From NCBI RefSeq assembly GCF_041886205.1, contig NZ_CP169029.1: DNA of 64,000 nucleotides; one strand, 5' to 3'. This document shows, one piece after another, positions 270 to 44,703 of this stretch. A model generated the notes under the pieces. That model searched no databases. It saw only the letters and a list, made by a program, of their open reading frames with translations, and was not told the origin of the DNA. The stretch comes from Escherichia coli. Its GTDB lineage: Bacteria; Pseudomonadota; Gammaproteobacteria; Enterobacterales; Enterobacteriaceae. Position numbers and translations under genes: made by a program. Numbering within the stretch: position 1 is the first letter of the stretch; the number at the start of each line of letters is the position of its first letter.

Positions 270-1446
270 ATTGCAGACCGCGCTCTTTCAGGCGTTCGAT
301 ACCCTGAATCTGCAACGGGTAAAAACATTTAGCGTTCCACCGGTGACGCTTTGCGGTCCGGGCGCGGTGAGCAGTTGCGGGCAGCAAGCGCAAACGCGTG
401 GGCTGAAACATCTGTTCGTGATGGCAGACAGCTTTTTGCATCAGGCGGGGATGACCGCCGGGCTGACGCGTAGCCTGGCCGTTAAAGGCATCGCCATGAC
501 GCTCTGGCCGTGTCCGGTGGGCGAACCGTGCATTACTGACGTGTGTGCAGCCGTGGCGCAGTTGCGTGAATCAGGCTGTGACGGGGTGATTGCGTTTGGC
601 GGCGGCTCGGTGCTGGATGCAGCAAAAGCCGTGGCGTTGCTGGTGACGAACCCCGATAGCACGCTGGCGGAAATGTCAGAAACCAGCGTTCTGCAACCGC
701 GCCTGCCGTTGATTGCCATTCCAACGACCGCCGGAACCGGCTCTGAAACCACCAACGTAACGGTGATTATCGACGCGGTGAGCGGGCGCAAGCAGGTGTT
801 AGCCCATGCCTCGCTGATGCCGGATGTGGCGATTCTCGACGCCGCATTGACCGAAGGTGTGCCGTCGCATGTCACGGCGATGACCGGTATTGACGCGTTA
901 ACCCATGCCATTGAAGCGTACAGCGCGCTGAACGCCACACCGTTTACTGACAGTCTGGCGATTGGCGCTATTGCGATGATTGGCAAATCGCTGCCGAAAG
1001 CGGTGGGCTACGGTCATGACCTTGCCGCGCGCGAGAGCATGTTACTGGCTTCATGTATGGCGGGAATGGCGTTTTCCAGTGCGGGGCTTGGGTTGTGCCA
1101 CGCGATGGCGCATCAGCCAGGGGCGGCGCTGCATATTCCACACGGTCTGGCGAACGCCATGTTGCTGCCAACGGTGATGGAATTTAACCGGATGGTTTGT
1201 CGCGAACGGTTTAGTCAGATTGGTCGGGCACTGCGAACTAAAAAATCCGACGATCGTGACGCTATTAACGCGGTAAGTGAGCTGATTGCGGAAGTTGGGA
1301 TTGGTAAACGACTGGGCGATGTTGGCGCGACATCTGCGCATTACGGTGCATGGGCGCAGGCCGCGCAGGAAGATATTTGTCTGCGCAGCAACCCGCGTAC
1401 CGCCAGCCTGGAACAGATTGTCGGACTGTACGCGGCGGCGCAATAA
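259..1446 (+). CDS. eutG: Ethanolamine utilization alcohol dehydrogenase EutG (iron-containing ADH family)
   Basis: ORF track 232..1446; start moved to internal ATG (MQNELQTALFQ) preceded by GAGGGG SD; 395 aa as expected. Confidence 0.9.
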   Translation: MQNELQTALFQAFDTLNLQRVKTFSVPPVTLCGPGAVSSCGQQAQTRGLKHLFVMADSFLHQAGMTAGLTRSLAVKGIAMTLWPCPVGEPCITDVCAAVAQLRESGCDGVIAFGGGSVLDAAKAVALLVTNPDSTLAEMSETSVLQPRLPLIAIPTTAGTGSETTNVTVIIDAVSGRKQVLAHASLMPDVAILDAALTEGVPSHVTAMTGIDALTHAIEAYSALNATPFTDSLAIGAIAMIGKSLPKAVGYGHDLAARESMLLASCMAGMAFSSAGLGLCHAMAHQPGAALHIPHGLANAMLLPTVMEFNRMVCRERFSQIGRALRTKKSDDRDAINAVSELIAEVGIGKRLGDVGATSAHYGAWAQAAQEDICLRSNPRTASLEQIVGLYAAAQ

Positions 1447-14794: not shown

Positions 14795-16219
<1,425 letters not shown>

Positions 16220-16222
16220 GGG

Positions 16223-17119
16223 TTATTCCTTGTCTAAAACCTGACGAATAAAGCCGCCGTGTTGATCCAGGCGTTTTTTAGCTTCTGCGGCATCGAGATT
16301 TTTCAGCACCATCACAATGGCCGTTTTACAGTTGCGCTCGCAGGCAATTAACGCCGCTTCCGCTTGTTCGGCATTACATCCGGTGGCGTTTTTAACGATA
16401 TTGACCTGGCGCACATGCAGTTTTTCGTTGGTGGCGACCACATCGACCATCAGGTTGCCGAACACTTTGCCAGATTTAATCATCAGCCCGGTGGAGAGCA
16501 TATTGAGCACCAGTTTCTGCGCTGTACCTGCTTTCATCCGCGAAGAACCGGTAACCACTTCGGCACCTACAATCGGTGTAATGGCAAACTCTGCGGTGGT
16601 TGAAACGGCGCTCCCCGGATTACAGGAAATTCCCACTGTGCGGCAGCCGAGCTGGCGTGCGTATTCCAGTCCGGCAATTACATACGGCGTGCGACCACTG
16701 GCCGCAATACCAACCACCACATCCTGTGCCGTTAAATTAATATTTTTCAGATCGTTAACACCACCTTCCCGGCTATCTTCAGCGCCTTCCACCGCGTGCT
16801 GAATGGCATATTCGCCTCCAGCAATCAAACCAACCACCAGACCCGGTTTAACGCCGTAGGTGGGCGGACATTCGCTGGCATCCAGAATCCCCAGACGACC
16901 GGATGTTCCCGCACCGAGATAAATCAGACGACCGCCGCCGCTGACCTGGGCGTGGATAACATCGATCGCCGCGGCGATATCCGGCAGGACGCGCTCAACG
17001 GCAAGCGGTACGGTTTTATCTTCATCGTTGATAATCCGGCACATTTCCAGCGTCGATACGCGGTCAATTTCAGCCGAGGCGGTGTTCGAGCCTTCAGTAA
17101 TCATCTTTTCTAGTTGCAT
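16223..17119 (-). CDS. murQ: N-acetylmuramic acid 6-phosphate etherase MurQ (SIS domain)
   Basis: 298 aa; recognised sequence. Confidence 0.9.
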
Positions 17120-17222
17120 CGGTGGTGACCTTACTATTTACGATCAAATAATTGCAGATGTATGGAATCATATATCCCGAATTGACAGACTTAAAGGAAT
17201 CATTGAGTCTACACTCGCAGAG

Positions 17223-17238
17223 TGTGAAGAGCGTCATA
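17223..17238. promoter_or_regulatory. CRP-like site (TGTGA-N6-TCATA) in the murQ/murR divergent control region
   Basis: Match to CRP half-site consensus; murQP is known to be CRP-dependent and MurR-repressed; exact site not verified. Confidence 0.4.
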
Positions 17239-17282
17239 AGAACTTAAGCTGAATTTTTGCTGCCAGCCCAGGAGAGTGGAAG

Positions 17283-18140
17283 ATGTTGTACCTGACGAAA
17301 ATACGCAATGCGGAAAGTGAATTTACCGGGAACGAGCAAAAAATTGCTGACTTTCTGCGGGCCAACGTGAGTGAGCTGAAATCCGTCTCTTCGCGCAAGA
17401 TGGCGAAACAGCTCGGCATCAGTCAGTCGAGCATTGTGAAATTTGCCCAGAAGCTCGGCGCGCAAGGATTTACTGAATTGCGTATGGCGTTAATTGGCGA
17501 ATACAGTGCCAGCCGGGAGAAAACGAATGCCACGGCGCTGCACCTGCACAGTTCGATTACCAGTGATGATTCGCTGGAAGTGATTGCCCGCAAACTGAAT
17601 CGCGAAAAAGAGCTGGCGCTGGAGCAAACCTGTGCGTTGTTCGACTACGCGCGGCTGCAAAAAATCATTGAGGTCATCAGTAAAGCACCGTTTATCCAGA
17701 TAACTGGCCTGGGCGGGTCGGCGCTGGTGGGGCGCGATCTGTCGTTCAAACTGATGAAAATTGGCTATCGCGTGGCCTGCGAAGCCGACACGCACGTACA
17801 AGCCATCGTTTCCCAGGCGTTGAAAAAAGGCGATGTACAAATCGCTATCTCTTACAGCGGCAGTAAAAAAGAGATTGTCTTGTGCGCAGAAGCGGCACGA
17901 AAGCAGGGGGCAACGGTGATTGCCATTACTTCTCTGGCTGACTCTCCGCTGCGGCGGCTGGCGCATTTCACGCTCGATACCGTTTCCGGTGAAACCGAAT
18001 GGCGTAGCTCGTCGATGTCTACCCGCACGGCGCAAAATTCTGTTACCGATTTACTGTTTGTTGGTCTTGTGCAACTCAATGATGTGGAGTCATTGAAAAT
18101 GATTCAGCGCAGCAGTGAGCTAACACAACGCCTGAAATGA
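17283..18140 (+). CDS. murR: RpiR/MurR-family transcriptional repressor MurR (HTH plus SIS domain)
   Basis: 285 aa; divergent from murQ. Confidence 0.88.
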
Positions 18141-28023: not shown

Positions 28024-28355
28024 TGTATTTCCCCAACTTATAGGTTTAGTGTTGTGGAACTAAAGTCTAGTCTGGCGGTTCGACTTTAGCCTGGATAGTT
28101 AGCGCCAGTTTTTAACAGACGCGACGCACGAAGAGCGCAATACAGTCCATTGCTGGCGGGTGTTGACCGCTGACGTTTCGTACGTCATTAAACATTATGC
28201 CGCTAAAGGAAGAATTGAACCAAATCATAAAATCGATTCAGCTTTGGCTTTTCCTGTAACGATTAATTTCGCGCATCAAAATAATTAGTCTGGTTAAATA
28301 CCAGTTCCGACAGGCTGAATCAATGCCAGGAGGGGCGAAAGTTTGAAGCAGGCCA

Positions 28356-28386
28356 CAAAAAAGCACCTGAAAAGGTGCTTTTTTAC
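28356..28386. terminator. Intrinsic terminator downstream of cysK (hairpin AGCACC...GGTGCT with flanking A/T tracts)
   Basis: Inverted repeat flanked by A6 and T6. Confidence 0.65.
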
Positions 28387-43129: not shown

Positions 43130-43395
43130 ATTTGCTCCAAATATGAGGCAGGTTAAATTTCCGTGCACATTCTATGTAACATGGTTAAGGAAAACGAGAT
43201 CTGACACACACTATAATGACGTCCTGTGACAAGCTTCAAAAATAGTGATCTGTCATACATTTCTGCTATGTTGTGTATGGGAGCTGAAAGTTATGTAAAT
43301 GTGCTAACATTAAACATAACCATAACATTCAAGTCATCAATCTTTTCGTAGTCATAATCCTGGTCTATCAAAGAAATCACCACAACCCATTTAAA

Positions 43396-43414
43396 TGAAT
43401 TTGATAATCATTCT
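43396..43414. promoter_or_regulatory. Fur box-like site upstream of mntH (TGAATTTGATAATCATTCT)
   Basis: Resembles GATAATGATAATCATTATC consensus; mntH is known to be Fur-regulated. Confidence 0.5.
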
Positions 43415-43430
43415 CGTTTGGCATAGCATG

Positions 43431-43452
43431 AAACATAGCAAAGGCTATGTTT
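43431..43452. promoter_or_regulatory. MntR operator: perfect palindrome AAACATAGC-AAAG-GCTATGTTT overlapping the mntH promoter
   Basis: 9-bp perfect inverted repeat 13 nt upstream of the mntH ATG; matches the MntR box as I recall it. Confidence 0.6.
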
Positions 43453-43455
43453 TAG

Positions 43456-44703
<1,248 letters not shown>

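What the first reader, a model, noticed from the sequence alone, without database searches (positions are those of the whole stretch)
17120..17282. murQ/murR divergent control region with a CRP-like site
The 163-bp divergent intergenic region contains TGTGA-AGAGCG-TCATA (17223-17238), about 45 bp upstream of the murR ATG. That fits the catabolite control reported for the MurNAc utilisation operon, though I cannot place the MurR operators with confidence.
Basis: partly seen in the sequence, partly recalled or inferred. Interest (0 to 1): 0.15.

Follow-up and report, generated by a model that had tools for sequence, protein, structure and literature searches.

The report
Known CRP site of murQ promoter
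The motif is real and is almost certainly the already-published cAMP-CRP (catabolite) activator site of the E. coli cell-wall-sugar (MurNAc) operon murQP, sitting 71.5 bp upstream of a mapped murQ start and inside the leader of the repressor gene murR, so it is an ordinary, known control element.

Summary
TGTGA-AGAGCG-TCATA lies at 17223-17238 in the 163-bp murQ/murR divergent spacer of an E. coli chromosome, and the site is identical in K-12.

- **Sequence alone is only suggestive.** The core matches 9 of 10 positions, about 0.9% chance per upstream region. An approximate PWM rates it weak.
- **Conservation is strong.** One such site occurs in all 15 murR-upstream regions examined, from Escherichia, Citrobacter, Salmonella arizonae, Pluralibacter, Enterobacter, Lelliottia and Huaxiibacter. 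The half-sites are fixed, the spacer is free, and the distance to two GGAAT-N5-ATTCC-like repeats is fixed. I take those repeats as the MurR operators: O1 at 17164-17178 and O2 at 17196-17210.
- **Mapped 5' ends fit class I.** A published genome-wide map places a murQ start at 17159, so CRP is centred at -71.5. It places a murR start at 17217, so CRP is at +14.5.

This matches the reported activation of murQ by cAMP-CAP and the interference with murR. The site serves the murQ promoter, not murR. The finding is already known and of low interest.

Side finding: 1,047 of 5,426 complete E. coli genomes, including Nissle, APEC O1 and ST131, lack murR and the right CRP half-site.

The parts
17120..17282 (.). 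163-bp divergent murQ-murR intergenic control region
   Evidence: ORFs and RefSeq annotation. It differs from K-12 at only 3 positions: 17189, 17250 and 17257.
17220..17241 (.). cAMP-CRP binding site. The 22-bp footprint is GAGTGTGAAGAGCGTCATAAGA, the core TGTGA-N6-TCATA is at 17223-17238, and the centre is 17230.5.
   Evidence: Sequence. It is the only CRP-like site in the spacer. The half-sites are invariant and the spacer is free in 15 genomes. It lies at -71.5 from the murQ start and +14.5 from the murR start.
17164..17178 (.). Proposed MurR operator O1, GGAATCATATATCCC (GGAAT-N5-ATTCC-like). It overlaps the murQ -10 element.
   Evidence: The block TGGAATCATATAT is invariant in alignment A1. 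It is a perfect inverted repeat in S. arizonae and in phylogroup B2 E. coli. It lies 59.5 bp from the CRP centre in E. coli and 58.5-60.5 bp in all relatives. The literature reports two adjacent opposite repeats in this spacer. Binding was not tested here.
17196..17210 (.). Proposed MurR operator O2, GGAATCATTGAGTCT. It lies 32 bp from O1 and 27.5 bp from the CRP centre.
   Evidence: GGAATCAT is directly repeated at 17164 and 17196. The block GAATCATTGAGTCT is invariant in A1. The geometry is conserved.
17167..17172 (-). -10 hexamer TATGAT of the proximal murQ promoter. The -35 is weak (TTAAGT, 17194->17189).
   Evidence: It lies at -13 to -8 from the mapped start at 17159. The orthologous S. 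arizonae promoter TTGAAA-16-TATGAT scores 10/12.
17159..17159 (-). Mapped murQ transcription start (5' UTR 40 nt)
   Evidence: Kim et al. 2012, Table S1: NC_000913.2 position 2543755, 7 reads. The 51-nt upstream sequence matches the window's minus strand 17209->17159.
17182..17210 (+). murR promoter: -35 TTGACA (17182-17187), 17-bp spacer, -10 GAGTCT (17205-17210, inside O2)
   Evidence: The elements are placed from the mapped murR start at 17217. The hexamer assignment is inferred.
17217..17217 (+). Mapped murR transcription start (5' UTR 66 nt). The CRP site is centred at +14.5.
   Evidence: Kim et al. 2012, Table S1: position 2543697, 14 reads.
17235..17235 (-). Second, distal leftward (murQ-direction) 5' end, inside the right half of the CRP site. 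It faces the murR start, giving a 19-nt overlap.
   Evidence: Kim et al. 2012, Table S1: position 2543679, 8 reads, UTR 116 nt. The evidence is weak.
17125..17152 (+). Promoter-like GTGACC-16-AATAAT, a possible additional rightward promoter next to murQ. Its status is unknown.
   Evidence: Consensus scan only, 9/12. No mapped start was found for it.
16223..17119 (-). murQ (MurNAc-6-P etherase), first gene of the regulated murQP operon. murP is at 14795-16219.
17283..18140 (+). murR (RpiR-family repressor with HTH_6 and SIS domains)

Best explanation
The motif is the cAMP-CRP (CAP) binding site of the E. coli murQP promoter.

**Activation of murQ.** A CRP dimer bound at 17220-17241 is centred 71.5 bp upstream of the proximal murQ transcription start at 17159 on the minus strand. 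It activates that weak-(-35) promoter as a class I activator, through contact with the RNA polymerase alpha C-terminal domain.

**Repression by MurR.** The MurR tetramer binds two repeats. O1 (17164-17178) lies over the -10 element. O2 (17196-17210) lies over the -37 to -51 region, where the polymerase alpha subunit and the -35 contacts would sit. MurR thereby represses murQP until MurNAc-6-P releases it.

**Effect on murR.** murR is transcribed rightward from 17217, with its -35 between O1 and O2 and its -10 inside O2. MurR therefore autoregulates. Bound CRP sits at +14.5 in the murR leader, where it can hinder murR transcription as a roadblock.

**What is shown and what is inferred.**
- Shown here: the sequence, its uniqueness in the spacer, its conservation and fixed geometry, and its position relative to published 5' ends.
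- Taken from the literature: CRP and MurR control of murQP, two MurR repeats in this spacer, and MurNAc-6-P as inducer.
- Inferred: which bases form O1 and O2, the hexamer assignments, and the class I contact.
For: 1. The sequence and gene context are confirmed, and the site is identical in K-12 MG1655.
2. It is the only CRP-like sequence in the spacer and the adjoining 60 bp of murR.
3. Phylogenetic footprint: in the Escherichia/Citrobacter alignment, 9 of the 10 core positions are invariant while the flanks diverge. One site with at most 1 mismatch is present upstream of murR in all 15 genomes examined. These include genera whose MurR is only 53-55% identical and whose flanks do not align. 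The half-sites are fixed and the 6-bp spacers all differ. The chance per region is about 0.009.
4. Geometry: the CRP centre lies 58.5-60.5 bp from O1, 25.5-27.5 bp from O2, and mostly 111.5-118.5 bp from the first ATG of the divergent catabolic operon. Its distance to the murR ATG ranges from 52.5 to 107.5 bp.
5. Kim et al. 2012 mapped 5' ends at K-12 positions 2543755 (murQ) and 2543697 (murR). These correspond to window 17159 and 17217 and put the site at -71.5 and +14.5.
6. The -10 TATGAT lies where that start predicts, and the S. arizonae ortholog scores 10/12.
7. Literature: MurR binds two neighbouring opposite repeats in this spacer and represses murQP and itself. murP is listed as regulated by 'CRP, MurR' with a citation of Jaeger & Mayer 2008, whose title names catabolite activator protein. 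My recollection of that abstract, which I could not verify, is a class I CAP site upstream of the murQ promoter and a CAP roadblock for murR.
Against: - The primary paper could not be read, so its mapped CAP position and transcription starts were not compared directly.
- The three genome-wide 5' ends rest on only 7-14 reads each.
- By an approximate weight matrix the site is weak (5.2 bits; 36% of shuffled spacers reach that score), and the right half-site TCATA departs from TCACA.
- My recollection that the published promoters are 'face-to-face' fits the pair 17217(+)/17235(-) better than the pair 17217(+)/17159(-). The latter are back-to-back.
Confidence: 0.88

Rival explanations
1. The CRP site mainly serves murR rather than murQ. 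It would act as a class II-like activator, or as an occluding repressor, of a murR-proximal promoter just downstream of the site.
For: A -10-like TATGCT/TATCCT, with an extended-(-10) TG in most relatives, is conserved 30-32 bp right of the CRP centre. It occurs in K-12, other Escherichia, Citrobacter and S. arizonae. In Citrobacter and S. arizonae it is followed by a third perfect repeat, TGGAATnnnnnATTCCA.
Against: - The implied start would put CRP at about -37 to -39, not -41.5.
- The window strain has TTTGCT at this position and K-12 lacks the TG.
- No 5' end is mapped there, and the mapped murR start at 17217 lies upstream of the site.
- The distance to the murR ATG is not conserved, whereas the distance to the catabolic operon is.
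Confidence: 0.07
2. The experimentally defined CAP site is a different sequence. It would lie upstream of the distal leftward start at 17235, within the first codons of murR, and the 17223-17238 motif would be incidental.
For: The 17217(+)/17235(-) pair is face-to-face with 19 nt of complementary 5' ends. That resembles my recollection of the published description. A class I site for a start at 17235 would lie near 17297-17328.
Against: No sequence with 4 or fewer mismatches out of 10 to the CRP core lies between 17239 and 17340. The 17223-17238 site is deeply conserved with fixed geometry and lies exactly at -71.5 from the other mapped murQ start.
Confidence: 0.03
3. The motif is a chance TGTGA-containing sequence with no regulatory role.
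For: Window-wide, the count of matches with at most 1 mismatch equals the expectation. The approximate PWM score is low.
Against: The site is conserved in every lineage examined at a fixed distance from the operators, while its spacer and flanks change. Both matches with at most 1 mismatch in the window fall in promoter regions of operons known to respond to CRP, murQ and nupC. CRP control of this operon is published.
Confidence: 0.02

Closest known systems
E. coli K-12 murQ promoter CAP site and MurR operators (Jaeger & Mayer 2008, J Bacteriol 190:6598; summarised in PMC9177960)
   Same: Same locus and same genes. The CRP motif, O1 and the right arm of O2 are identical in sequence to K-12. 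Control of murQP by CRP and MurR, and two MurR repeats in this spacer, are reported.
   Different: Three single-base differences elsewhere in the spacer: 17189 A vs G, 17250 T vs G, and 17257 T vs A. I could not check the published coordinates.
Class I CRP-dependent promoters, e.g. lacP1 at -61.5 and malT at -70.5 (own knowledge)
   Same: A single CRP dimer upstream of a promoter with a weak -35, centred on the class I face at -71.5.
   Different: The right half-site is imperfect (TCATA, or TCAAA in all relatives). A repressor operator (O2) fills the DNA between CRP and the -35. The same dimer sits in the leader of the divergent regulator gene.
Vibrio cholerae murQP promoter (Walker et al. 2023, eLife, PMC10328515)
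   Same: The same operon function (MurNAc uptake and catabolism), and the promoter requires CRP.
   Different: In V. cholerae the CRP site is at -41.5 (class II) and overlaps a HapR site. No divergent murR with an O1/O2 arrangement is described there.
RpiR/AlsR-family repressor operators, bound by tetramers at paired inverted repeats
   Same: Two inverted repeats 32 bp (three helical turns) apart, consistent with a tetramer bridging two sites. The repressor has HTH_6 and SIS domains.
   Different: The half-site GGAAT-N5-ATTCC is my inference from comparative data. It is not a published consensus that I could verify.

Membership tests
cAMP-CRP binding site | 22-bp dyad with core TGTGA-N6-TCACA | tested here: met
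   TGTGA-AGAGCG-TCATA matches 9 of 10 core positions. The flanks are poor and the approximate PWM gives only 5.2 bits.
cAMP-CRP binding site | Conservation of the half-sites, but not the spacer, in orthologous regulatory regions | tested here: met
   All 15 genomes carry TGTGA-N6-TCA[A/T]A, with eight different spacers.
cAMP-CRP binding site | Physical binding by cAMP-CRP and crp/cya-dependent expression | not testable with these tools
   Reported for this operon in the literature. The primary data could not be read.
Class I CRP-dependent promoter | Site centred near -61.5, -71.5, -82.5 or -92.5 from the transcription start | tested here: met
   The centre at 17230.5 is -71.5 from the murQ start at 17159 (K-12 2543755) mapped by Kim et al. 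2012, with 7 reads.
Class I CRP-dependent promoter | Core promoter with a recognisable -10 and a weak -35 | tested here: met
   -10 TATGAT matches 5/6 at -13 to -8. The -35 TTAAGT matches 3/6. The S. arizonae ortholog is TTGAAA-16-TATGAT.
Class II CRP-dependent promoter (site at -41.5) | Site overlapping the -35, centred about -41.5 from a start | tested here: not met
   No mapped start lies 41.5 bp from the centre; the starts are at -71.5, +14.5 and +4.5. The scan candidate TTCACA-18-AATGAT has no mapped start, and its -10 is not conserved in S. arizonae or C. sedlakii.
MurR (RpiR family) operator pair | Two adjacent inverted repeats in the murR-murQ spacer, overlapping the promoters | tested here: met
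   O1 is at 17164-17178 and O2 at 17196-17210, 32 bp apart. They are the best-conserved blocks of the spacer and overlap the murQ -10 and the murR -10. As a loose pattern the repeat is not enriched in the window: 30 matches found against 28 expected.
MurR (RpiR family) operator pair | Binding by MurR, relieved by MurNAc-6-P | not testable with these tools
   Shown for the whole spacer fragment by gel shift in PMC9177960, not for the individual repeats.
Structured RNA leader / known RNA family in the spacer | Match to an Rfam model | tested here: not met
   No match with E <= 1 in 16900-17500.

The most novel reading that the evidence does not exclude
One CRP dimer may act as a three-way switch in this 163-bp spacer. 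It would activate the proximal murQ promoter from -71.5. It would sit on a distal leftward start at 17235 (+4.5) and silence it. It would also block the rightward murR transcript at +14.5. Carbon limitation would then raise the catabolic operon and lower its repressor at the same time. The fixed O1-O2-CRP spacing across genera would reflect selection on this combined module.
Probability: 0.3. Interest if true: 0.25.

Novelty: already known. Interest (0 to 1): 0.1.

Why it matters
The site links cell-wall sugar (MurNAc) catabolism and peptidoglycan recycling to carbon status through cAMP-CRP. This has been published for E. coli K-12 since 2008, so the finding adds no new biology.

This check adds three things:
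- An annotation-grade placement of the CRP site, of the probable MurR operators, and of three mapped 5' ends in window coordinates.
- Evidence that the CRP/O1/O2 module keeps the same geometry across several enterobacterial genera.
- The population-level observation that phylogroup B2 E. coli has lost the repressor gene and the right half of the CRP site.

Tried and rejected
**Literature and data that were unavailable or unhelpful**
- The primary paper (Jaeger & Mayer 2008) is not held under its PubMed id or PMC id.
- The supplement of PMC9177960 with the annotated spacer is not held. The same applies to the sigma-S paper's start-site file, Thomason 2015, the Cappable-seq table, which is cut before 2.5 Mb, the CRP ChIP-exo supplements and Mendoza-Vargas 2009.
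- Several searches and paper look-ups for the published position gave nothing.

**Readings I abandoned**
- My first reading of the MurR repeats was GATgTATG..CATAtATC centred at 17166.5 and AGACT..AGTCT centred at 17198.5. I replaced it with GGAAT-N5-ATTCC, centred at 17171 and 17203, because relatives carry perfect versions of the latter.
- A class II reading used the scan hit TTCACA-18-AATGAT. I rejected it because it has no mapped start and its -10 is not conserved.
- I rejected a -61.5 placement because no -10-like hexamer lies at 17176-17181.

**Measures that were not decisive**
It ranks the site low, although its top hits fall in the cysK-ptsH and nupC-mntH spacers.
- The loose MurR pattern is not enriched in the window.
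- No inverted repeat was reported by the repeat finder at its thresholds.
- There was no Rfam match.

Full report
**What is there**

The flanking ORFs are a 298-aa gene on the minus strand (16223-17119) and a 285-aa gene on the plus strand (17283-18140). The 2.4 kb around them is 100% identical to E. coli strain 6EVA, where the genes are annotated murP, murQ, murR and ucpA. Pfam gives HTH_6 plus SIS domains for MurR and SIS-type domains for MurQ. The spacer 17120-17282 is 163 bp. K-12 MG1655 has the same CRP motif. In the spacer it differs from the window only at 17189, 17250 and 17257. The coordinate conversions are K-12 (NC_000913.3) = 2562892 - w and NC_000913.2 = 2560914 - w.

**Is it more than chance?**

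- The core TGTGA-N6-TCACA with at most one mismatch occurs twice in the 64-kb window, against 1.95 expected from shuffles. The motif class is therefore not enriched window-wide.
- For one short regulatory region the chance is small. In 20,000 shuffles of the 280 bp upstream of murR, 0.9% contained such a match.
It gives the site only 5.2 bits, which ranks 116th of 63,979 positions and is reached by 36% of shuffled spacers.
- The matrix's best hits fall in the cysK-ptsH spacer (28339-28360) and the nupC-mntH spacer. Both are regions of known CRP control (own knowledge), so the matrix is not meaningless. The murQ site is simply a weak match.
- No second candidate exists in the spacer. Nothing with 4 or fewer mismatches out of 10 lies between 17239 and 17340.

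Sequence alone is therefore only suggestive.

**Comparative evidence**

A scan of one genome per species with MurR returned 22 loci. tblastn showed murQ directly divergent from murR in Escherichia and two Citrobacter genomes. In S. enterica arizonae, another Citrobacter and Enterobacter chuandaensis, murQ lies about 1.9 kb away.

In the Escherichia/Citrobacter alignment the spacer has diverged strongly but three blocks are invariant:
- TGGAATCATATAT at 17162-17174;
- GAATCATTGAGTCT at 17197-17210;
- GAGTGTGA.G....TCA.A at 17220-17238.

Every murR-upstream region of the 15 genomes examined contains exactly one CRP core with one mismatch. This includes Pluralibacter, Enterobacter chuandaensis, Lelliottia and Huaxiibacter, where MurR is only 53-55% identical and the flanks are about 30% G+C and unalignable. 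The core always reads TGTGA-N6-TCA[A/T]A, with eight different spacers.

The geometry is fixed on the catabolic side and free on the murR side:
- The CRP centre lies 58.5-60.5 bp from a first GGAAT-N5-ATTCC-like repeat.
- It lies 25.5-27.5 bp from a second such repeat.
- It lies mostly 111.5-118.5 bp from the first ATG of the divergent catabolic operon.
- Its distance to the murR ATG ranges from 52.5 to 107.5 bp.

The site is therefore positioned for the catabolic promoter, not for murR.

**The MurR operators**

[quoted passage not shown] It thereby represses murQP and itself, and MurNAc-6-P is the inducer (PMC9177960).

The two conserved blocks fit this description:
- O1 is GGAATCATATATCCC at 17164-17178.
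- O2 is GGAATCATTGAGTCT at 17196-17210.

The two sites share the octamer GGAATCAT, 32 bp apart. O1 is a perfect inverted repeat in S. arizonae (GGAATCATATATTCC) and in phylogroup B2 E. coli (GGGATCATATATCCC). As a loose pattern the repeat is not enriched in the window. The assignment therefore rests on conservation and position, not on statistics or binding data.

**Transcription starts**

Table S1 of Kim et al. 2012 (PMC3415461) lists three 5' ends in this spacer:

| NC_000913.2 position | Strand in K-12 | Gene | Reads | 5' UTR | Window position |
|---|---|---|---|---|---|
| 2543755 | + | murQ | 7 | 40 nt | 17159 (-) |
| 2543679 | + | murQ | 8 | 116 nt | 17235 (-) |
| 2543697 | - | murR | 14 | 66 nt | 17217 (+) |

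The printed 51-nt upstream sequences match the window.

Relative to the start at 17159:
- The CRP centre (17230.5) is at -71.5, a canonical class I position.
- TATGAT (17172->17167, inside O1) lies at -13 to -8.
- The -35 is weak (TTAAGT).
- O2 covers -37 to -51.

The orthologous S. arizonae promoter reads TTGAAA-16-TATGAT and scores 10/12.

Relative to the murR start at 17217:
- A perfect TTGACA (17182-17187) lies 17 bp upstream of GAGTCT (17205-17210, inside O2).
- The CRP site is centred at +14.5.

**Mechanism**

cAMP-CRP at -71.5 activates the proximal murQ promoter (class I). MurR on O1 and O2 occludes the -10 and the region between CRP and the -35. MurR on O2 also covers the murR -10, giving autoregulation. 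CRP in the early murR leader can block murR transcription.

This agrees with the literature at the level I could access. murP is listed as regulated by 'CRP, MurR' with a citation of Jaeger & Mayer 2008, and the title of that paper names catabolite activator protein. It also agrees with my unverified recollection of its abstract: a class I CAP site upstream of the murQ promoter, and CAP acting as a roadblock for murR.

One loose end remains. I recall the promoters being described as face-to-face. The pair 17217(+)/17235(-) is face-to-face with a 19-nt overlap, whereas 17217(+)/17159(-) is back-to-back. murQ is said to have multiple reported promoters, which fits two leftward starts. A class I site for the start at 17235 would have to lie in the first codons of murR, and nothing CRP-like is there. 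The CRP assignment does not depend on resolving this point.

**Comparison with known systems**

This is the known K-12 murQ CAP site, so the novelty is nil. It works like class I promoters such as lacP1 and malT (own knowledge). It differs from V. cholerae murQP, where CRP sits at -41.5 and shares its site with HapR. There is no Rfam match in the region.

**Population note**

Across 5,426 complete E. coli genomes the site falls into three haplotypes:
- The K-12-type 40-mer around the site is present in 4,258 genomes.
- A variant with a TCAAA right half and an 8-bp longer spacer is present in 120 genomes.
- In 1,047 genomes (19.3%) murR is deleted and murQ abuts ucpA. These include Nissle, APEC O1 and O25b:H4-ST131, which are phylogroup B2 by own knowledge.

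In the deletion haplotype O1, O2 and TGTGA are kept at the same spacing, but the right half-site reads TGAAA.

**Verdict**

The feature is already known and of low interest.

Noticed in passing
L026 3601-3879 (E. coli H22) and L028 (ERP001), corresponding to window 17211-18110: In 1,047 of 5,426 complete E. coli genomes (19.3%) murR is deleted and murQ lies next to ucpA. These include Nissle, APEC O1 and O25b:H4-ST131. O1 (now a perfect repeat, GGGATCATATATCCC), O2 and the TGTGA half-site remain at the same spacing, but the right CRP half-site reads TGAAA. In H22 pbp4b/yfeW is also reduced to an 87-bp remnant. These strains should express murQP without its repressor. I found no paper describing this in the held library.
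   Followed up: partly
L007 2459-2483; L009 and L010 2460-2483: Citrobacter and S. enterica arizonae carry a third, perfect MurR-type repeat (TGGAATnnnnnATTCCA) just upstream of the murR ATG. It is preceded by a conserved extended-(-10)-like TGnTAT(G/C)CT about 31 bp right of the CRP centre. Escherichia lacks this repeat (a 30-column gap in alignment A1). This suggests that the murR promoter was relocated in E. coli.
   Followed up: partly
window 17257 (also 17189, 17250): The window strain has T where K-12 and all relatives have the A of TATGCT, giving TTTGCT. It also has A at 17189 where K-12 has G, which makes the -35 region of the murQ promoter read TTAAGT rather than TTAAGC. Only 14 genomes are at least 99% identical over the 2.4-kb region.
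   Followed up: no
window 17235 (minus strand): A second leftward 5' end (8 reads, Kim et al. 2012) lies inside the right half of the CRP site and faces the murR start at 17217. The two transcripts would share 19 complementary nucleotides.
   Followed up: partly
window 43130-43464: The only other CRP core with at most 1 mismatch in the window is TGTGACAAGCTTCAAA at 43225-43240. It lies with a cluster of weight-matrix hits (43139-43312) in the nupC-mntH divergent spacer. nupC is a known CRP/CytR target (own knowledge).
   Followed up: partly
window 28339-28360: The best hit of the approximate CRP matrix in the whole window (AAGTTTGAAGCAGGCCACAAAA, 15.7 bits) lies in the cysK-ptsH spacer, 316-337 bp upstream of the ptsH ATG. 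ptsHI is known to respond to CRP (own knowledge).
   Followed up: no
L009 1213-2298 (minus) and 597-1376 (minus): In S. arizonae, Citrobacter Res13 and more distant genera, the operon divergent from murR does not start with murQ. It starts with a 361-aa protein that carries a signal-peptide-like N-terminus and has no Pfam or NCBIfam match, followed by a DUF2057 protein and then murQ. The CRP/O1/O2 module sits upstream of that first gene.
   Followed up: partly
window 17133-17150: A short inverted repeat, TATTT-ACGATC-AAATA, overlaps the promoter-like AATAAT next to murQ. It is conserved within Escherichia only, not in Citrobacter, and its role is unknown.
   Followed up: no
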